Shown here: positions 27,424 to 50,581 of the stretch, one piece after another
Position numbering within the stretch: position 1 is the stretch's first letter
How the letters are laid out: the number at the start of each line of letters is the position of its first letter
NCBI GenBank assembly: GCA_944368875.1
Contig: CALVXF010000022.1
Coordinates: 217-64,216, forward strand
DNA: 64,000 nucleotides
Origin: an uncultured Bacilli bacterium
GTDB taxonomy: Bacteria; Bacillota_I; Bacilli_A; RF39; UBA660
Reading direction: 5' to 3'
The notes under the pieces: generated by a model
Databases searched by the model: none
What the model was told of the DNA's origin: nothing
Seen by the model: only the letters and a program-made list of their open reading frames with translations
Program-made: the position numbers and the translations under genes

Positions 27424-27509
27424 GCCGACCTGGCGGAATGGTAGACGCAGTGGATTCAAAATCCACCGATAGAGATATCATAAGGGTTCAAGTCCCTTGG
27501 TCGGTACCA
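27424..27509 (+). tRNA. tRNA-Leu (anticodon CAA), with encoded CCA
   Basis: Acceptor stem GCCGACC/GGTCGGT. Anticodon loop TTCAAAA. Long variable arm. T-loop GGTTCAAGTCC. Terminal ACCA. Confidence 0.9.
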
Positions 27510-27627
27510 TTATTAAAACTAACTCGCTTTATGTCTAATATCGAAGACATTTAATTTATGCGAGTTTTTTTAGTGCAATTTTCGCCATTATATAGTATAA
27601 TGATTATGATAATAGGAGGTTGATAGT

Positions 27628-29250
27628 GTGATTTTAAGAAAGCCTTATGCCTTTTTAATTAAGAATTTTAAAAAGATTCATGCAGTCATGGCTTTGATTT
27701 TGCTATATTTAGTTTATAAGTCTAGTAATCTTATGAGTTTTTTAAATGAATATGTAACTGATCAACCTAGTTATGTAGGAACAGAGATAACAGATACTTT
27801 ATTTAATACTTGGATGTTTTTATTACCTGTTTTAATTATTTTGGCATCTATTGTAGTTATTGTATTGATGGTTAATAAACAAAAACCATATAGATTTTAT
27901 TTTATCAATATTGTTTCTTCTATTTTTGTTATTGTCTATTATGCCTATGCTTTGAATGTTATAGGTGATTTGGAGTTGCGTTTAGTTGATATCCGTATTA
28001 TGCGGGCAGTTCGTGATTTGATTGTTGTTGTTTATGCATCACAACTAATTTCTACAATTGTTACTTTTGCTCGTGCAACTGGATTTAATATTAAACAGTT
28101 TGACTTTGGTAAAGACTTAAAAGAAATGGAAATTAAAGAAAGCGACCGTGAAGAGTTTGAAGTAGAACTAAATGTTGATACTGATAAAGCTAAGCGTAAA
28201 GCACGAAGGACGTTTCGTTTTTCACGTTATTATTATTTAGAAAATCGTTTGATAATTAATGGTGTAGTAGCTATTACATTTGTGATAGTTTGTTTTTCTT
28301 TGTTTATGAATAGTTTCGTTTATAACAAGACATATTCATCTAGTGAATATTTTAATACTAGAGATTTTACAATGCGGATTGAAGATGCTTATGTAACAAC
28401 TAAAGATAGCAAAAATAACATTATTACTGATGAAAATCATAGTTTAGTTGTCTTGCGTGTTAAAATAAAAAAACGCTATCAAAATAGTGATGACATAGAA
28501 TTGGATGTGGCAAAAACTGCCTTAAAGTTAGGTGATACGCGCTATTATCCAATTATGACTTATCGTGATAAATTAACTGATATTGGTACTTCATATGAAT
28601 ACCAAATTATAACAGATGAATATGAATATTATCTATTAACTTATCAAGTAGAAACAGTTAAATTAGATAGCAAAACTAAAGAATTCAATTATGTTGAAAA
28701 TATGGTGTTTACAAAAAGAGGCATTAACCCCAATATTATCCATATAGCTTTGAATTTTAAAAATTTAGATAGTGATATTGAAGCGAAAAACTATAACTTA
28801 GAAGAGGAAGTATCTTTTGATGAAAGTATTTTAAAAGAATCAAAACTTACTGTTTCTAGTGTCGAAATAAATAATACTTTTAAAAATACATATCAATACT
28901 GCAGTACTAGTAATACATGTTATGATATGGTTGAATACTTAAAACCTAGCGTAAATAGTAATTATGATAAAACCCTTATTAAGTTTAGTTATCAATTAAT
29001 TAAAGATGAAACACTAACAACAAATACCATCAATAATTTGTATAATTTATTAAATGCATATGCAACAATCGAATATAAAATAGATGGTGTAGTTAAAAGG
29101 CAAACATCAGGTTTTGGTCAAGTCGTACCAACCAAAACCAAAGAAGATAATGTTGCATACATTGAAGTTGTTGATGAAGTTGCAAAAGCAAATGGAATAA
29201 ACTTGATATTAAAAGTAAGAAATAGTGAATATATTATCAAATTAAAGTAG
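27628..29250 (+). CDS. polytopic membrane protein with large C-terminal extracytoplasmic domain (first gene of the island)
   Basis: GTG start 8 nt after AGGAGG. About 5 TM helices followed by a soluble domain of about 310 aa. No recognisable family. Confidence 0.55.
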   Translation: MILRKPYAFLIKNFKKIHAVMALILLYLVYKSSNLMSFLNEYVTDQPSYVGTEITDTLFNTWMFLLPVLIILASIVVIVLMVNKQKPYRFYFINIVSSIFVIVYYAYALNVIGDLELRLVDIRIMRAVRDLIVVVYASQLISTIVTFARATGFNIKQFDFGKDLKEMEIKESDREEFEVELNVDTDKAKRKARRTFRFSRYYYLENRLIINGVVAITFVIVCFSLFMNSFVYNKTYSSSEYFNTRDFTMRIEDAYVTTKDSKNNIITDENHSLVVLRVKIKKRYQNSDDIELDVAKTALKLGDTRYYPIMTYRDKLTDIGTSYEYQIITDEYEYYLLTYQVETVKLDSKTKEFNYVENMVFTKRGINPNIIHIALNFKNLDSDIEAKNYNLEEEVSFDESILKESKLTVSSVEINNTFKNTYQYCSTSNTCYDMVEYLKPSVNSNYDKTLIKFSYQLIKDETLTTNTINNLYNLLNAYATIEYKIDGVVKRQTSGFGQVVPTKTKEDNVAYIEVVDEVAKANGINLILKVRNSEYIIKLK

Positions 29251-29297
29251 AAAATATAATAAATGTATGTTATAATTATAAAGTGGAGGATGGTAAG

Positions 29298-48189: not shown

Positions 48190-48264
48190 AAACTACAAAA
48201 CATTGTAGTTTTTTAATTTTTATTATATAATTATATGTAGTATGATTAATATGTGAGGGATATT

Positions 48265-50535
48265 ATGAAATTAAAATTTAGAGCTGAACCAAAAGATATT
48301 ATTATATTTGTTATTTTTTGTTTTATGTTGCTATATGTCGTAGCAATAGCAGAATTAAATATAATTTCTTTTGTTGGTGATAGTACATTTCATGGATTAA
48401 ATCCTATTCCAGCCTTTAGTTCAGAGTTGTTTGCTCCAACGATGGTATTTTTTTTAGCAGCTTTAATTGGTATTATAGCAAGTGTCTCAAACTACTTTTG
48501 GGAAAGAGAAAAAGGATTTGGAGTATCTACTTCTAAAAAAGATAAAGGTGGATATTCAAGATGGGCTAAAGATAAAGAAATGCAAAAAGAACTTAAAAAA
48601 ATCGACCCATCTTCGATGGATGTTAAAGCCGCAGGAGTCCCTATTATTAACAATAAAAGTGGAGTATGGGTTGATGATGGTGAATATCATAGTTTGATTA
48701 TTGGGGCAACTGGCTCTGGTAAGACAGAAATGGTAGTTCAACCATTAGTTAGTGTTTTAGCTCGTAAAGGTGAATCAATGATTATTACCGATCCAAAAGG
48801 AGAAATATATGAGCGAAATGGTGAATTATTAAAAGAAAAAGGATATAACATCATTGTTTTAAATTTCCGTAATCCGCAAAATGGTAATGCTTGGAATCCA
48901 CTAGAAGCTCCATATTATTACTATAATAATGGTAATCAAGATAAAGCTATTGAATTACTTGAAGATTTAGGAACAAACATTGTTCACGAAGAACATGCAG
49001 ATGATCCGTTTTGGCAAAATACGGGTGGTGATTTCTTTACTGGGTTAGCACTTGCTTTATTTGAAGATGCTAAAAAAGAAGAAATCAATATCAATAGTAT
49101 TAATGTTATGGCAATGGCTGCTGATGATAAGTTTGCAGGCACTAAATTATTAAATGCCTATTTTAATTTTAAAGATCGCGCTAGTAGTTCATATGTCAAT
49201 GTCAATTCAACAATAAATGCACCTACTGAAACAAAAGGTGGGATTTTATCAGTTTTTAGAACAAAGATCAAAATCTTCGCATCACGTGATAATTTAAGTG
49301 AAATGTTAAGTTATAGTGATTTTGATATGCGTGATATTGGTAAAAAGAAAACAGCTGTATTTATTATTTTACAAGATGAAAAGAAAACATATCATGCTTT
49401 GGGTACTATTTTTATAAAACAATGTTATGAAACATTAATTGATGTTGCTCAAGAAAATGGTGGTAAATTAAAATATCGTACTAATTTTATTCTTGATGAA
49501 TTTGCGAATATGCCACCATTAAAAGATATAAGTACAATGATTACGGCAGCTCGTTCACGTCAAATAAGACTAAATTTTATTATTCAAAACTTTGCTCAAT
49601 TAGAAGATGTATATGGTAAACAAACGGCAGAAACTATTAAAGGTAACTGTGGTAATATTATTTACTTAATTAGTAGTGAGCTTGCAGCTTTGGAAGAAAT
49701 AAGCAAATTGTGTGGTGAAAAAGAATCTAAAAAAGATGATAAAACAGCATCAACACCACTTGTTACAGTTAGTGATTTACAACGTCTACCTATGTGGACA
49801 CAAATAATCATTCGTTCACGTAAAATGCCATTTAAAACGAAGGCCATTCCATATTTTCAAATGGATAAAGAAGGCAAATGGGGAAAACATTATCCTAAAT
49901 GTGTTTTGCCAATTCGTGAAAAAAGACCTCTACAAATCTTTGATATAAAAGGATTTACTGAAGCCAAACACAAAGCTAAAATGGAGGAAATGTTCGGTAG
50001 TGCAGGTAGTGGGAATCCACTTATGGATAGCCCAATGGGAACTAATCTATTTAATCAAACTCCTACTCCTAATCCGTTTATTTCTAGTGAACCAACAAAA
50101 CCTGCTAACAAGGGTATTGATTTAGATGAACTGACTAGACGTATTGATGCTAAATTAGCAGCTTTAGAAGAAGAAGAACAAAAAGAACAAGCGAAAGTTC
50201 AAGCAGAGAATAACATTAGTGGTATGGAAGCAAAAGAAGAAGTTTCAAATAATGATGATATTATATCTGATGAAAATGGAGCTGACTTACAAGCAACTAA
50301 TGATAATGTTAATATCAATATACCAACGACAACAATTATTGATGATGAACCTTCTTTAATAAAAGCTGAAAAGACTGAAGATAAAAAAGATCTTCATGTT
50401 GCTGTAGCAACTCCAACGTCTTCTGGAACAGTTGTTGTTTCAAAAGAAGAAATACCAGTTATAGAAGAACCATATGATGAAAACTTTATAACTGATGATC
50501 AATTTTTTGATGATTTCTTTTCTGAAGATGAGTAA
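48265..50535 (+). CDS. VirD4/TraG-family type IV coupling protein with long acidic disordered C-terminal tail
   Basis: Two N-terminal TM helices. Walker A GATGSGKTE. ILDEFANMPP (Walker B/DEF motif of T4CPs). Tail ends DDFFSEDE. The track start at 48253 is a GTG; ATG 48265 follows a GAGGGA RBS. Confidence 0.75.
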   Translation: MKLKFRAEPKDIIIFVIFCFMLLYVVAIAELNIISFVGDSTFHGLNPIPAFSSELFAPTMVFFLAALIGIIASVSNYFWEREKGFGVSTSKKDKGGYSRWAKDKEMQKELKKIDPSSMDVKAAGVPIINNKSGVWVDDGEYHSLIIGATGSGKTEMVVQPLVSVLARKGESMIITDPKGEIYERNGELLKEKGYNIIVLNFRNPQNGNAWNPLEAPYYYYNNGNQDKAIELLEDLGTNIVHEEHADDPFWQNTGGDFFTGLALALFEDAKKEEININSINVMAMAADDKFAGTKLLNAYFNFKDRASSSYVNVNSTINAPTETKGGILSVFRTKIKIFASRDNLSEMLSYSDFDMRDIGKKKTAVFIILQDEKKTYHALGTIFIKQCYETLIDVAQENGGKLKYRTNFILDEFANMPPLKDISTMITAARSRQIRLNFIIQNFAQLEDVYGKQTAETIKGNCGNIIYLISSELAALEEISKLCGEKESKKDDKTASTPLVTVSDLQRLPMWTQIIIRSRKMPFKTKAIPYFQMDKEGKWGKHYPKCVLPIREKRPLQIFDIKGFTEAKHKAKMEEMFGSAGSGNPLMDSPMGTNLFNQTPTPNPFISSEPTKPANKGIDLDELTRRIDAKLAALEEEEQKEQAKVQAENNISGMEAKEEVSNNDDIISDENGADLQATNDNVNINIPTTTIIDDEPSLIKAEKTEDKKDLHVAVATPTSSGTVVVSKEEIPVIEEPYDENFITDDQFFDDFFSEDE

Positions 50536-50542
50536 TTAAACA

Positions 50543-50581
50543 AAACCACCTATGTACATATAATGTAGTAGGTGGTTTTAT
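50543..50581 (+). terminator. rho-independent terminator closing the island operon
   Basis: AAACCACCTA..TAGGTGGTTT hairpin followed by a T-run. Confidence 0.6.

What the first reader, a model, noticed from the sequence alone, without database searches (positions are those of the whole stretch)
27424..50581. Roughly 23 kb single-strand island downstream of tRNA-Leu combining a Tad-like filament module and a Gram-positive T4SS-like module, with no relaxase, integrase or prepilin peptidase
Every gene from 27628 to 50535 is on the + strand with minimal or overlapping intergenic spacing, directly abutting tRNA-Leu(CAA), a classic island insertion site. The block encodes, in order: polytopic and secreted Cys-rich proteins; a CpaB-like protein; a TadA/CpaF ATPase; two T2SSF-family platform proteins; a 58-aa pilin-like peptide; pseudopilin-like paralogues; a TadZ-like pseudo-ATPase; a small 2-TM pilin-like protein; a VirB6-like protein; a VirB3-like protein; a split VirB4; a CHAP hydrolase; a lipoprotein; and a VirD4-type coupling protein. 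That gives all three T4SS-superfamily ATPase classes (VirB11-like, VirB4, VirD4) plus Tad platform components. Gram-positive conjugative T4SSs normally lack a VirB11 homologue and always carry a relaxase. Tad loci do not carry VirB4 or VirD4. I cannot recognise a relaxase (no HUH or MOB motifs), a tyrosine/serine recombinase, or a TadV-type aspartyl prepilin peptidase anywhere in the 64 kb. The combination therefore looks like either a domesticated or decayed conjugative element whose mating channel has recruited a type-IV-filament module, or an undescribed DNA-uptake/secretion/adhesion apparatus.
Basis: partly seen in the sequence, partly recalled or inferred. Interest (0 to 1): 0.9.

Follow-up and report, generated by a model that had tools for sequence, protein, structure and literature searches.

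The report
Chromosomally fixed conjugation-type machine, no relaxase
A 23-kb block of 22 same-strand genes has the layout of the DNA-transfer (conjugation) machinery of Bacillus plasmids such as pLS20, pilus-like module included, but here it lies in the chromosome with no DNA-nicking enzyme found in the 64 kb and is conserved in hundreds of uncultured small-genome gut bacterial species, which suggests it has been kept for the cell's own use.

Summary
The gene block is real: 22 + strand genes (27628-50535) encoding a CpaB-like protein, a TadA/FlaI-clade ATPase, pilin-like peptides, a TadZ-like protein, VirB6, VirB3-like, a two-gene VirB4, a CHAP hydrolase and a VirD4 coupling protein. No relaxase, recombinase or prepilin peptidase is found in the 64 kb.

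1. It is not a tRNA-targeted island. Composition matches the flanks, there is no att repeat, and scpA-scpB-tRNA-Leu on the left and rhodanese on the right recur in other genomes.
2. The "Tad + T4SS" combination is not unprecedented. It is the layout of the pLS20/pAW63/pXO2-type Gram-positive conjugation operon. Profile matches link g4, g7, g8, g16 and g18 to pLS20-family genes 36, 38, 39, 49 and 51.

What is unusual is the setting. The locus is collinear in about 80 species-representative genomes (a central gene is in at least 330) of uncultured gut "Bacilli/Mollicutes-like" bacteria, one with a closed 1.2-Mb genome. Its core proteins are 72-80% identical across them, against 55-58% for ScpA/ScpB. 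The two halves co-diverge.

Best reading: a domesticated, vertically inherited conjugation-type contact and transfer machine of unknown substrate. It parallels the relaxase-less T4SS of Patescibacteria. Verdict: new variant of a known kind.

The parts
27424..27509 (+). tRNA-Leu(CAA). This is the left backbone neighbour, not part of the machine and not an integration scar.
   Evidence: ARAGORN. The same tRNA follows scpB in L001 and L069. No repeat of its 3' end occurs elsewhere in the window.
27628..29250 (+). g1: 540-aa polytopic membrane protein with a large C-terminal extracytoplasmic region. First gene of the block, fast-evolving.
   Evidence: ORF. No family hit. Positional orthologues are 28-39% identical in 17 loci.
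29283..29957 (+). g2: about 220-aa secreted Cys-rich protein with a C-terminal TM anchor.
   Evidence: ORF and sequence. No family hit. Orthologues are 22-46% identical in 41 loci.
29970..32666 (+). g3: 898-aa secreted, Cys-rich, highly variable surface protein in the position of the pLS20 Tie mating adhesin. Carries a possible thioester motif FCID (residues 94-97).
   Evidence: ORF. No Pfam/PDB hit. Positional orthologues of 534-1340 aa. hhalign puts AFC(I/L)D on the Tie YCID Cys68 (E 1e-4, 46 columns), a hint only. Tie function: PMC8092201.
32666..33067 (+). g4: DUF5411 protein (N-terminal TM plus small domain). Counterpart of pLS20 gene 36.
   Evidence: Pfam DUF5411 3.4e-53. hhalign to the gene-36 family E 2.7e-8. 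DUF5411 is annotated in pBMB68 next to SAF and the ATPase. Median identity 64%.
33083..33901 (+). g5: CpaB/RcpC-like SAF-domain protein.
   Evidence: Pfam RcpC 30.2 bits (cut-off 28.8) and SAF. TIGR03177 1.9e-11, below cut-off. hhalign to the pBMB68 SAF protein E 3e-24.
33904..35142 (+). g6: type-IV-filament motor ATPase of the TadA/CpaF/FlaI clade. This is the 'VirB11' (gene 37, labelled tadA in RefSeq) of pLS20-type operons.
   Evidence: Pfam T2SSE 1.7e-27. PDB: FlaI 1.3e-17, archaeal GspE 2e-16 and CpaF 3.4e-16 over residues 5-300; VirB11 only over 139-260. 35% identical to pLS20 tadA, E 1e-43. More than 7500 homologues, 70-82% identity across the clade.
35155..36057 (+). g7: 300-aa membrane protein (N- and C-terminal TMs, helical cytoplasmic middle). 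Counterpart of pLS20 gene 38; candidate TadB-like platform subunit.
36047..36841 (+). g8: 264-aa membrane protein. Counterpart of pLS20 gene 39; candidate TadC-like platform subunit.
   Evidence: hhalign to the gene-39 family E 1.5e-9, 130 columns, and not to gene 38. Median identity 71%.
36899..37075 (+). g9: 58-aa pilin-like peptide. Leader MKEAAG, hydrophobic helix, short Cys-containing C-terminal knob. Candidate major filament subunit.
   Evidence: Alignment of more than 70 orthologues with invariant MKEAxGEAN(L/M)T. A promoter-like site with TG extension lies at 36845-36873 (such matches are at chance frequency in this AT-rich DNA). Flp-like Cys-tailed pilins on the zrk4 plasmid.
37107..37340 (+). 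g10: 77-aa extra pilin-like, Cys-rich paralogue specific to this lineage.
   Evidence: ORF. No counterpart in 84 loci.
37344..37802 (+). g11: 152-aa N-terminal-TM protein, candidate minor pilin. Paralogue of g12.
   Evidence: hhalign g11 vs g12 E 1e-63. Present in 81 loci.
37829..38341 (+). g12: 170-aa N-terminal-TM protein with a Cys-rich tail, candidate minor pilin.
38357..39346 (+). g13: soluble two-domain protein (receiver-like N-domain plus ParA/MinD-like domain with a degenerate P-loop, GxKNVxxxxGAT). TadZ-like architecture.
   Evidence: AF2 pLDDT 84. Foldseek ParA 3cwq 1.1e-4; TadZ 3fkq 2.9e-3 over full length. No sequence-level PDB/Pfam hit. 571 representatives at E<=1e-3 among 1.84e9. 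Relatives in at least 330 species genomes.
39405..39755 (+). g14: 116-aa two-TM hairpin protein, VirB2-like (T4SS_pilin).
   Evidence: Pfam T4SS_pilin 0.003, below cut-off. Present in 77 loci. Same position and topology as pLS20 gene 45.
39830..41314 (+). g15: 494-aa secreted variable protein ending in a T4SS_pilin-like TM hairpin. Same position and topology as pLS20 gene 46.
   Evidence: Pfam T4SS_pilin 0.0064 at residues 414-475. Poorly conserved. pLS20 table.
41365..43197 (+). g16: VirB6/TrbL-type polytopic channel protein with a long C-terminal extension.
   Evidence: Pfam TrbL_4 32.3 bits (cut-off 27). NCBIfam MMCAP2_0566 2.6e-8. hhalign to pLS20_p028-family VirB6 E 4.8e-10, 304 columns.
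43218..43547 (+). g17: VirB3-like small membrane protein.
   Evidence: Pfam TcpE 0.0018, below cut-off. hhalign to the zrk4 138-aa protein E 3.5e-7 and to pBMB68 PrgI E 3.2e-5.
43486..44058 (+). g18: separately encoded N-terminal VirB4 domain (TraC-like). Counterpart of pLS20 gene 51.
   Evidence: NCBIfam VirB4_plasma positions 98-276, 3e-14. PF26593 TraC-like on orthologues. hhalign to the gene-51 family E 1.8e-8. Median identity 68%.
44058..45842 (+). g19: VirB4 ATPase with intact Walker A (GTSGSGKST) and Walker B.
   Evidence: Pfam P-loop_TraG and AAA_10 about 3e-13. NCBIfam VirB4_plasma 4e-105 and CD1110 1e-48. Under 30% identical to any plasmid VirB4 but 72-81% within the clade.
45862..47520 (+). 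g20: membrane-anchored cell-wall hydrolase with a C-terminal CHAP domain (VirB1 analogue). Replaced by other hydrolase types in relatives.
   Evidence: Pfam CHAP 1.1e-14. Peptidase_M23 at this position in L003. About 25% identity elsewhere.
47530..48189 (+). g21: 219-aa lipoprotein with a C-terminal TM. It sits one gene after the pLS20 VirB8 slot, and no similarity was detected.
   Evidence: ORF. No hit. hhalign to the gene-53 family not significant.
48253..50535 (+). g22: VirD4-type coupling protein (two N-terminal TMs, intact Walker A/B, about 200-aa acidic C-terminal tail).
   Evidence: Pfam T4SS-DNA_transf 1.8e-58, TrwB_AAD_bind, TraG-D_C. NCBIfam conju_CD1115 303.5 bits (cut-off 250). 55-70% identical in relatives.
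50542..50579 (+). Terminator-like hairpin (AAAACCACCTA ... TAGGTGGTTTT) directly after the T4CP stop codon. Probable end of the transcription unit.
   Evidence: Read directly from the sequence. Not covered by the scan.

Best explanation
The block is a chromosomally fixed, vertically inherited copy of the pLS20/pAW63-type (MPF-FATA) Gram-positive conjugation apparatus. That apparatus natively contains a Tad-like type-IV-filament module. Here it has lost, or never had linked, its relaxase, oriT, replication and integration genes.

Proposed working:
1. The variable surface proteins (g1-g3, g15) and a short filament capture a partner cell. The filament would be built from the g9 pilin-like peptide by the TadA-clade ATPase g6, together with membrane proteins g7/g8, CpaB-like g5, DUF5411 g4 and the TadZ-like g13.
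2. The hydrolase g20 opens the wall.
3. VirB6 (g16), VirB3-like (g17) and the two-part VirB4 (g18/g19) form the channel.
4. The coupling ATPase g22 feeds a cytoplasmic substrate into it.

Shown: gene identities, gene-for-gene correspondence with conjugative plasmids, chromosomal context, clade-wide conservation and co-divergence.
Inferred: filament formation, contact function and transfer.

The substrate is unknown. I favour DNA, meaning conjugation-like exchange between cells of these small-genome bacteria, using an unlinked or unrecognised DNA-processing protein (about 40%). Protein or other cargo comes next (about 35%).

The confidence given (0.6) is for the whole statement. For the identity alone (a domesticated pLS20-type apparatus) I would put it at about 0.85.
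For: Correspondence with plasmid conjugation operons:
- pLS20-family operon table, genes 34-54 (PMC8557374).
- hhalign: g4~gene 36 E 2.7e-8, g7~38 E 5.4e-7, g8~39 E 1.5e-9, g18~51 E 1.8e-8, g16~VirB6 E 4.8e-10, g17~VirB3-like E 3.5e-7, g5~pBMB68 SAF E 3e-24.
- tblastn to pLS20 tadA, VirB4 and VirD4.
- Annotated contexts in pBMB68, Listeria, Paraclostridium and Mycoplasmatota plasmids.
- The T4CP passes the CD1115 cut-off.

Chromosomal and vertical:
- Housekeeping flanks.
- Same scpAB-tRNA-Leu left junction in L001 and L069 and the same rhodanese right junction in L018.
- No GC shift and no att repeat.
- Collinear in about 80 species representatives, and the central gene is in at least 330.
- VirB4 is under 30% identical to all PLSDB plasmids but 72-81% within the clade.
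- The two halves co-diverge, r 0.67-0.79.

Under selection: core proteins are 72-80% identical versus 55-58% for ScpA/B, and the ATPase motifs are intact.

No relaxase, primase, SSB or integrase homologues in the window plus 84 loci, 1.47 Mb in total.

Precedent: a relaxase-less chromosomal FATA-derived T4SS in Patescibacteria (PMC12102498).
Against: - No experiment or expression data exist, and all hosts are uncultured.
- A relaxase could lie elsewhere in the genome. Only 64 kb plus about 21-kb loci were visible.
- T2SSF membership of g7/g8 and processing of g9 are unproven, so filament assembly is inferred by analogy. No paper I read shows a filament for pLS20-type systems either.
- The halves can be uncoupled. 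L018 keeps g1-g14 without the adjacent T4SS half, and L024/L025 keep g9-VirB4 without g1-g8 adjacent. So they need not act strictly as one machine.
- Vertical inheritance is inferred from synteny and divergence patterns, not from a host phylogeny. The left flank differs in L004.
Confidence: 0.6

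Rival explanations
1. The apparatus has been co-opted for a non-DNA role: delivery of proteins or other cargo into neighbouring bacteria or host cells, or attachment to a partner organism on which these small-genome bacteria depend. Parallels are the relaxase-less T4SS of Patescibacteria and the rvh system of Rickettsiales.
For: - No relaxase in the locus or in 64 kb.
- Clade-wide retention in genomes of about 1.2 Mb.
- Fast-evolving surface parts (g1-g3, g15, and the g20 domain swap) next to a very conserved core, as expected for partner recognition.
- The Patescibacteria paper draws the same inference.
- L018 keeps the filament half alone, which argues for an adhesion role independent of transfer.
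Against: - No candidate effector or immunity genes are recognisable in or beside the locus.
- The coupling protein belongs to a family known from DNA-conjugative elements (CD1115).
- The nearest VirB4 model is that of mycoplasma ICEs. From my own knowledge, those elements mediate DNA transfer without a recognised relaxase.
Confidence: 0.35
2. It is a conventional integrative conjugative element or integrated plasmid, and its relaxase and integrase lie just outside the window.
For: The gene set is that of conjugative plasmids. A tRNA gene abuts the left end. Only 27 kb upstream and 13 kb downstream could be inspected.
Against: - Both flanks are core housekeeping genes, contiguous with the block.
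- The flanking genes recur in other species.
- No att repeat and no compositional shift.
- Divergence among hosts is deep and graded, with no near-identical copies in distant hosts.
- Under 30% identity to any plasmid VirB4.
- In pLS20-type elements the relaxase sits inside the operon, within about 4-9 kb of VirB4. Here that space is occupied by rhodanese, DedA and RmuC.
Confidence: 0.06
3. These are two independent systems that merely sit side by side: an adhesive Tad-like pilus (g1-g13) and a separate minimal T4SS (g14-g22).
For: The halves occur apart in some genomes (L018; L024/L025; remnant in L069/L079). The g8|g9 junction is an insertion hot spot. A CpaF/PilC/DUF5411 operon without a reported T4SS is described in Clostridia (PMC9523054).
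Against: - The same pairing is found in one operon on at least five unrelated plasmids.
- The halves co-diverge as tightly as genes within one half.
- There is no intrinsic terminator between them, and gaps are 50-75 bp.
- In the split cases the pilin genes and g13 travel with the T4SS half, not with the ATPase half.
Confidence: 0.12
4. It is a decaying remnant of a conjugative element with no current function.
For: Relaxase absent. 'Split' VirB4. Some genomes carry only fragments (L069, L079).
Against: - All 22 ORFs are intact.
- Walker motifs are intact.
- The VirB4 split is ancestral.
- 72-80% identity across at least 40 species exceeds that of neighbouring housekeeping genes.
Confidence: 0.02

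Closest known systems
Conjugation operon of the pLS20 family of Bacillus plasmids (genes 34-54), with the related pAW63/pXO2/pBT9727, pBMB68, and Listeria and Paraclostridium plasmids
   Same: Same order and type of parts: large surface adhesin; small N-TM protein (gene 36/DUF5411); TadA-like 'VirB11' ATPase; two membrane proteins of about 250-300 aa; small TM peptides; 2-TM hairpin protein; C-TM protein; VirB6; VirB3-like; separate VirB4 N-domain gene; VirB4; hydrolase; CD1115-type VirD4. Supported by profile matches.
   Different: - The plasmids carry a MobP-type relaxase, primase, SSB, regulators (Rco/Rap/Phr) and replication/partition genes. None is present here.
- VirD4 is last here, whereas it precedes VirB6 in the plasmids.
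- CpaB/SAF and a ParA-like protein are present here and in pBMB68, but are not annotated next to the ATPase in pLS20.
- Sequence identity is only 20-35%.
- The location here is a conserved chromosomal site.
Relaxase-less chromosomal T4SS of Patescibacteria/CPR (Microb Genom 2025, PMC12102498)
   Same: An MPF-FATA-derived VirB4 system in the chromosome of small-genome bacteria. It is broadly and apparently vertically distributed, with VirB2-like pilins nearby and usually no relaxase, and is interpreted as co-opted.
   Different: Different phylum. In the passages I read, no TadA-type ATPase, CpaB or DUF5411 module is described inside the CPR cluster (T4P are mentioned separately). Here the full pLS20-type layout, including VirD4, is kept in one operon.
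Tad/Flp (type IVc) pilus
   Same: TadA/CpaF-clade ATPase, CpaB/RcpC-like protein, TadZ-like two-domain protein, very small pilin, and two membrane proteins directly after the ATPase.
   Different: No G/XXXXEY prepilin motif. No TadV in 64 kb. g7/g8 do not match T2SSF by sequence or by the model obtained. The TadZ-like gene lies after the pilins, not before the ATPase. The module is coupled to VirB4, VirB6 and VirD4.
Mycoplasma integrative conjugative elements (VirB4 = Mbov_0397 family)
   Same: This is the best-scoring NCBIfam model for g18+g19, and the MMCAP2_0566 model matches g16. The host lineage is Mollicutes-related. From my own knowledge, no recognised relaxase is known in those ICEs and they promote chromosomal transfer.
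   Different: Scores are below the model cut-off (352 vs 590 bits). From my own knowledge, mycoplasma ICEs are mobile, multi-copy and carry a DDE transposase, and no TadA-like module is reported. Here there is no transposase and the site is fixed.
Sulfolobales Ups pili plus Ced DNA-import system
   Same: It works like a type-IV pilus used for cell-cell contact combined with a VirB4/VirB6-type DNA translocator for chromosomal DNA exchange (PMC11823120 abstract).
   Different: Archaeal; separate loci; imports DNA; no VirD4-type coupling protein. Only faint NCBIfam similarity (CedB/CedD 1e-5 to 1e-13).

Membership tests
pLS20/pAW63-type (MPF-FATA) Gram-positive conjugative T4SS | VirB4-family ATPase of the monoderm type | tested here: met
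   Pfam P-loop_TraG 49.9 and AAA_10 49.9 bits, above cut-offs. NCBIfam VirB4_plasma 4e-105 and CD1110 1e-48, both below their equivalog cut-offs.
pLS20/pAW63-type (MPF-FATA) Gram-positive conjugative T4SS | VirD4-type coupling protein of the CD1115 family | tested here: met
   NCBIfam NF045973 303.5 bits against a cut-off of 250. Pfam T4SS-DNA_transf 1.8e-58.
pLS20/pAW63-type (MPF-FATA) Gram-positive conjugative T4SS | VirB6-like polytopic protein, VirB3-like protein, and a separate VirB4 N-domain gene (gene 51) | tested here: met
   TrbL_4 above cut-off. hhalign g16~pLS20_p028 family E 4.8e-10; g17~zrk4 138-aa protein E 3.5e-7 and PrgI E 3.2e-5; g18~gene 51 family E 1.8e-8.
pLS20/pAW63-type (MPF-FATA) Gram-positive conjugative T4SS | The gene 36 / 37 ('VirB11') / 38 / 39 module upstream of the channel genes | tested here: met
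   hhalign E 2.7e-8, 5.4e-7 and 1.5e-9, each specific to its counterpart. ATPase 35% identical to pLS20 tadA, E 1e-43.
pLS20/pAW63-type (MPF-FATA) Gram-positive conjugative T4SS | Cell-wall hydrolase (VirB1 analogue) | tested here: met
   CHAP 55.1 bits.
pLS20/pAW63-type (MPF-FATA) Gram-positive conjugative T4SS | VirB8-like protein | tested here: inconclusive
   g21 shows no similarity to the pLS20 gene 53 family or to any model.
pLS20/pAW63-type (MPF-FATA) Gram-positive conjugative T4SS | Cognate relaxase (and oriT) in the element | tested here: not met
   No relaxase family hit in any ORF of the 64 kb. No MobP2/MobP3 homologue in the window plus 84 loci. The rest of the genome is not testable with these tools.
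pLS20/pAW63-type (MPF-FATA) Gram-positive conjugative T4SS | Carried on a plasmid or ICE (replication/partition or integrase genes) | tested here: not met
   Housekeeping flanks and no integrase or rep genes.
Tad/Flp type IVc pilus | TadA/CpaF-clade ATPase | tested here: met
   Full-length matches to FlaI, archaeal GspE and CpaF at 1e-17 to 5e-16. Below all NCBIfam equivalog cut-offs.
Tad/Flp type IVc pilus | Two T2SSF-domain platform proteins (TadB, TadC) | tested here: inconclusive
   - No Pfam T2SSF hit even at E<=1.
- hhalign to Rhizobium TadB E 0.029, collinear over 145 columns; positive controls are equally weak.
- Position, size and TM layout fit.
Tad/Flp type IVc pilus | CpaB/RcpC | tested here: met
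   Pfam RcpC 30.2 bits against 28.8. TIGR03177 43.7 bits against 71, so not met at equivalog level.
Tad/Flp type IVc pilus | TadZ/CpaE (receiver-like plus atypical ParA-like ATPase) | tested here: inconclusive
   Fold and domain architecture agree: Foldseek ParA 1e-4, TadZ 3fkq 2.9e-3. There is no sequence-level similarity and the P-loop lysine is absent.
Tad/Flp type IVc pilus | Flp prepilin with the G/XXXXEY processing motif | tested here: not met
   g9 has MKEAAG|EANLTV in more than 70 orthologues, with no Glu+5/Tyr+6. The canonical motif is present on the zrk4 plasmid for comparison.
Tad/Flp type IVc pilus | Dedicated prepilin peptidase TadV | tested here: not met
   No Peptidase_A24 hit in the 64 kb. 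The genome-wide search is not testable here, and a ComC/PilD elsewhere could serve.
tRNA-targeted genomic island / ICE | Integrase, flanking direct repeats derived from the tRNA 3' end, atypical composition, patchy presence among relatives | tested here: not met
   No integrase. No repeat. GC 0.27-0.33 inside against 0.26-0.34 outside. Conserved at the same junctions in other species.
Domesticated relaxase-less chromosomal T4SS (as described for Patescibacteria) | FATA-type VirB4 cluster in the chromosome, widespread in a lineage, no linked relaxase | tested here: met
   Definition taken from PMC12102498.

The most novel reading that the evidence does not exclude
An entire order-level clade of uncultured, small-genome gut 'Bacilli/Mollicutes-like' bacteria keeps a conjugation machine, with its Tad-like mating filament, as a core chromosomal organelle. 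They would use it for relaxase-independent (or novel-relaxase) exchange of chromosomal DNA between cells: a built-in 'sex apparatus' comparable to mycoplasma chromosomal transfer or the archaeal Ups/Ced system, which would counter genome decay. A corollary is that pLS20-type Gram-positive conjugation systems in general build a type-IV-filament mating pilus. Current reviews deny this.
Probability: 0.2. Interest if true: 0.85.

Novelty: new variant of a known kind. Interest (0 to 1): 0.55.

Why it matters
1. It corrects a tempting misreading. The 'Tad + T4SS hybrid' is not a new kind of machine. It is the standard but under-annotated layout of a large family of Gram-positive conjugation operons. 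Genes 36-41 of pLS20 are still listed as 'unknown', and a 2025 review states that Gram-positive T4SSs lack VirB11 altogether.

2. About 2% of a roughly 1.2-Mb genome is spent on this apparatus in hundreds of uncultured gut species, and it is more conserved than the chromosome-segregation proteins ScpA and ScpB. That marks it as central to the biology of this clade, whether through DNA exchange, attachment, or dependence on other cells. It is a second, independent case beside Patescibacteria of a monoderm conjugation machine apparently kept in the chromosome of reduced-genome bacteria.

3. The thousands of metagenomic homologues of g7, g8 and g13 that carry no Pfam domain (named ones mostly 'hypothetical protein') can now be annotated by position and profile as parts of this system.

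4. pLS20 in Bacillus subtilis offers a tractable model to test what the filament-like module does.

Tried and rejected
- Exact-sequence look-ups of the window ATPase and of its 100%-identical cluster representative found no contig, so the source genome could not be retrieved.
- The profile of g13 against PDB sequences gave only noise. The TadZ link needed a structure model.
- Pfam at E<=1 on g7, g8 and eight plasmid counterparts recovered T2SSF only for the Mycoplasmatota plasmid.
- hhalign with single-sequence references was insensitive, and even known T2SSF pairs scored E 0.002-0.017. So the absence of a g7/g8-TadB/C match is not evidence of absence.
- The promoter/terminator scan was uninformative in this AT-rich DNA: 137 promoter-like sites found against 129 expected.
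- DUF5411 protein against plasmids by tblastn: no match, although PGAP annotates DUF5411 on pBMB68.
- PDB sequence searches for g1, g3, g5 and g21: nothing.
- Thioester-domain test for g3: a motif and a 46-column profile match only, with no Pfam hit in 9 orthologues.
- Rejected the idea that the ATPase is a true VirB11.
- Rejected the idea that the VirB4 split is a frameshift.
- Rejected recent horizontal spread: no near-identical copies across divergent hosts and under 30% identity to plasmid VirB4.

Full report
**1. What is in the sequence**

The window is a chromosomal segment of a low-GC (about 29%) Firmicute. It carries tsaE/B/D, pcrA, ligA, nusA, infB, pflAB, rbfA, tyrS, rpsD, ezrA, thiI, two SASP genes, clpP and scpA/scpB on the left. 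On the right it carries rhodanese, a DedA/VTT protein, rmuC, two RNase R paralogues and smpB.

tRNA-Leu(CAA) lies at 27424-27509. From 27628 to 50535 there are 22 consecutive + strand ORFs with short or overlapping gaps.

- DUF5411 (3e-53)
- RcpC/CpaB + SAF
- a T2SSE-family ATPase
- TrbL_4/VirB6
- a VirB4 encoded as 190 aa + 594 aa
- a CHAP hydrolase
- a VirD4 coupling protein that exceeds the NCBIfam cut-off of the CD1115 family

No relaxase, recombinase, transposase or A24 prepilin peptidase is detectable in any real ORF of the 64 kb.

**2. Refinements of individual calls**

- The ATPase aligns over its whole length with FlaI, archaeal GspE and CpaF (1e-17 to 5e-16), but only over the P-loop core with VirB11. 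It is a type-IV-filament motor.
- g13 has no sequence-level relative in the PDB. A confident model (pLDDT 84) shows a receiver-like domain followed by a ParA/MinD-type domain. It retrieves ParA (1e-4) and, over its full length, Eubacterium rectale TadZ (3FKQ, 2.9e-3). Its P-loop lacks the lysine.
- g9 is a 58-aa peptide whose N-terminus, MKEAAG|EAN(L/M)TV..., is invariant in more than 70 orthologues. It lacks the Flp Glu+5/Tyr+6.

**3. It is not an island**

- GC content and skew inside the block equal those of the flanks.
- The 3' end of the tRNA is not repeated anywhere in the window.
- In a different organism (L001; ScpA 58% and ScpB 55% identical), the same system follows scpA-scpB-tRNA-Leu.
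- In L018 the window's right-flank rhodanese gene follows g14 directly.

**4. Distribution and conservation**

The ATPase, g7 and g13 each have about 7,000-8,000 or more homologues in metagenomic protein collections. The listed g7 and g13 homologues carry no Pfam domain and, where named, are almost all 'hypothetical'.

The best 80 are uncultured gut 'Bacilli/Tenericutes/Mollicutes' MAGs from humans, mice, rabbits, chickens and ruminants. They include Candidatus Fimihabitans intestinipullorum (NCBI: Mycoplasmatota incertae sedis) and a closed 1.2-Mb circular genome.

In every locus long enough to show it, the genes are collinear and on one strand. Median identity to the window falls into two groups:

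| Group | Gene: median identity |
|---|---|
| Conserved core | VirB4 78%, ATPase 74%, g7 74%, g8 71%, g18 68%, T4CP 66%, DUF5411 64%, g13 62% |
| Fast-evolving surface parts | g1-g3 25-35%, VirB6 31%, hydrolase and lipoprotein about 25%, g15 not detectably conserved |

Pairwise distances of filament-half and T4SS-half genes correlate as well across the halves (r 0.67-0.79) as within them (0.61-0.81) in 40 genomes.

The VirB4 is under 30% identical to every VirB4 in 72,556 plasmids. This pattern fits long vertical descent under purifying selection. It does not fit recent mobility.

Exceptions show where the locus breaks:
- insertions between g8 and g9 (YfhO, a SpoIID-like protein, an AAA_14 ATPase)
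- the g9-VirB4 half without g1-g8 adjacent (L024/L025)
- the g1-g14 half without the T4SS (L018)
- remnants of g9+g13 only (L069, L079)

None of the inserts is an integrase or transposase.

**5. What it corresponds to**

The nearest plasmid VirB4 (29.6%) is on a plasmid of a cultured cold-seep Mycoplasmatota bacterium. About 3 kb downstream of it lie a SAF protein, an AAA ATPase, a CpaF, a hypothetical, a T2SSF protein (Pfam 4.9e-8) and small proteins with textbook Flp/TadE motifs (KKG|SPSLEY and others).

The B. thuringiensis conjugative plasmid pBMB68 carries a MobP3 relaxase, CD1115 VirD4, TrbL, PrgI, VirB4 and a hydrolase. After several further genes it carries DUF5411, SAF, an AAA ATPase, a T2SS/T4P/T4SS ATPase and two hypotheticals.

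Listeria and Paraclostridium plasmids carry a thioester adhesin, a small protein, a CpaF/VirB11 ATPase, two hypotheticals, tiny ORFs, VirD4, a pLS20_p028-family VirB6, DUF5592, VirB4 and a hydrolase; the Listeria one continues to a MobP2 relaxase.

The literature had already recorded VirB11, VirB4 and VirD4 homologues on pAW63/pXO2/pBT9727 in 2005 (PMC1196294). It also records a 'putative VirB11' (gene 37) in the pLS20 family, flanked by unknown genes 36 and 38-47 whose sizes and TM topologies match g4 and g7-g15 (PMC8557374). RefSeq labels pLS20 gene 37 tadA.

Profile-profile comparisons give specific one-to-one matches:

| Window family | Counterpart | E-value |
|---|---|---|
| g4 | gene 36 family | 2.7e-8 |
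| g7 | gene 38 family (not 39) | 5.4e-7 |
| g8 | gene 39 family (not 38) | 1.5e-9 |
| g18 | gene 51 family | 1.8e-8 |
| g16 | pLS20_p028-family VirB6 | 4.8e-10 |
| g17 | VirB3-like proteins | 3.5e-7 / 3.2e-5 |
| g5 | pBMB68 SAF protein | 3e-24 |

The 'split' VirB4 is therefore the ancestral state of this T4SS type.

g3 sits where the pLS20 Tie mating adhesin sits (PMC8092201). In the window and 7 of the 38 positional orthologues, an AFC(I/L)D-type motif aligns with the Tie thioester cysteine (E 1e-4 over 46 columns). No Pfam thioester model is hit.

**6. What is missing relative to the plasmids**

Homologues of the plasmid relaxases, primase, SSB, topoisomerase and integrase are absent from the window and from 84 related loci, 1.47 Mb in total. 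In pLS20-type elements the relaxase lies about 4-9 kb from VirB4 inside the operon region. Here a terminator-like hairpin follows the T4CP stop, and housekeeping genes come next. Whether a relaxase exists elsewhere in these genomes could not be tested.

**7. Mechanism**

Shown: the parts list, its correspondence to a machine known to transfer DNA between Gram-positive cells, intact ATPase motifs, and strong purifying selection in a chromosomal, non-mobile context.

Inferred:
1. Variable surface proteins (g1-g3, g15) and a short filament contact a partner cell. The filament would be made of g9 (with g10-g12 as minor subunits). It would be assembled by g6 with g7/g8, g5, g4 and the ParA-like g13.
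2. g20 opens the peptidoglycan.
3. g16, g17 and g18/g19, with the VirB2-like g14, form the channel.
4. g22 selects and pumps the substrate.

I favour DNA as the substrate (about 40%). The coupling protein and VirB4 belong to DNA-conjugative families, and the best VirB4 model is that of mycoplasma ICEs. From my own knowledge, those elements move DNA without a recognised relaxase.

Co-option for protein delivery or partner attachment is nearly as likely (about 35%). This is the role proposed for the relaxase-less FATA-derived T4SS of Patescibacteria (PMC12102498).

An ordinary ICE, two unrelated neighbouring systems, and a dead remnant are each unlikely, for the reasons given under the rival explanations.

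**8. Novelty**

The gene combination is already known from conjugative plasmids, although its filament-like part is poorly annotated. A December 2025 review still states that Gram-positive T4SSs lack VirB11 (PMC12857230). A CpaF/PilC/DUF5411 operon in Clostridia was flagged as a predicted secretion-related system in 2022 (PMC9523054).

I found no description of this apparatus as a fixed, relaxase-less chromosomal locus of a whole clade of small-genome gut bacteria (literature searches). I therefore rate it a new variant of a known kind, of moderate to good interest.

Noticed in passing
L004 13248-15683; L075 5112-7544 (-); L069 7105-9612; probably L016 6228-8801: A YfhO-family (GT-C-like) membrane protein is repeatedly inserted next to the pilin-like gene g9 in independent genomes (Pfam PF09586, E about 1e-125 to 1e-133 for L075 and L069; precomputed Pfam hit for L004). 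This hints at glycosylation of the pilin or of the surface where the machine sits.
   Followed up: partly
L018 10001-11795: In one clade member, g13 and g14 are followed directly by the rhodanese gene that flanks the window's locus on the right. The whole g15-g22 T4SS half is missing there while the filament half is kept.
   Followed up: yes
L024/L025 1-8900; L069 and L079: In L024/L025 the g9-to-VirB4 part occurs with housekeeping genes (for example Tex) on its left instead of g1-g8. In L069/L079 only g9 and g13 are detected; in L069 they lie between scpAB-tRNA-Leu and leuS. The pilin genes and the TadZ-like gene travel with the T4SS half, not with the ATPase half.
   Followed up: partly
L085 (CP074574.1) 22486-30022: A plasmid of a cultured cold-seep Mycoplasmatota bacterium, typed 'non-mobilizable', carries a canonical Flp/Tad module (SAF, AAA, CpaF, T2SSF, prepilins with G|xxxxEY) immediately downstream of a VirB6/VirB3/VirB4-like cluster. 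It is an unrecognised plasmid T4SS with a genuine Tad pilus.
   Followed up: partly
L090 (pLS20) 13191-13334 and 14035-14265; L087, L088 equivalents: pLS20-type plasmids encode a conserved 47-aa single-TM peptide (MLDQNxDR...) and a 76-aa two-TM hairpin that looks VirB2-like. The pLS20 family paper states that no pilus components are encoded.
   Followed up: no
window 37107-37340: g10 is an extra pilin-like Cys-rich ORF with no counterpart in any of the 84 related loci. It is probably a lineage-specific duplicate of g9.
   Followed up: partly
window 24063-24610: Two tandem alpha/beta-type SASP genes (the first confirmed by Pfam, 5.9e-19; the second gave no NCBIfam hit and was not scanned against Pfam) lie in a genome whose relatives are filed as Tenericutes/Mycoplasmatota. 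The lineage seems to retain spore-related genes.
   Followed up: no
window 54379-58715: Two tandem full-length RNase R (RNB) paralogues lie directly upstream of smpB.
   Followed up: no
L003, L009, L014, L019, L075 record titles: Contigs carrying this locus are deposited as 'Ignavibacteriales', 'Muribaculaceae' or 'Roseburia' MAGs. Given the locus and its flanks, these labels are probably binning or naming errors.
   Followed up: no
window 36845-36873 and 39351-39379: The best + strand promoter-like sites inside the block lie just upstream of the pilin gene g9 (with a TG extension) and in the g13-g14 gap (TTGACA-17-TAAAAT). These could be internal promoters for the pilin and for the T4SS half. 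Overall, promoter-like matches are at chance level in this AT-rich DNA.
   Followed up: no
window 50931-52238: A 435-aa membrane-anchored protein of unknown function, rich in Tyr/Trp/Arg repeats, lies just right of the locus. It has no family hit apart from a faint match to a mycoplasma membrane-protein domain.
   Followed up: no
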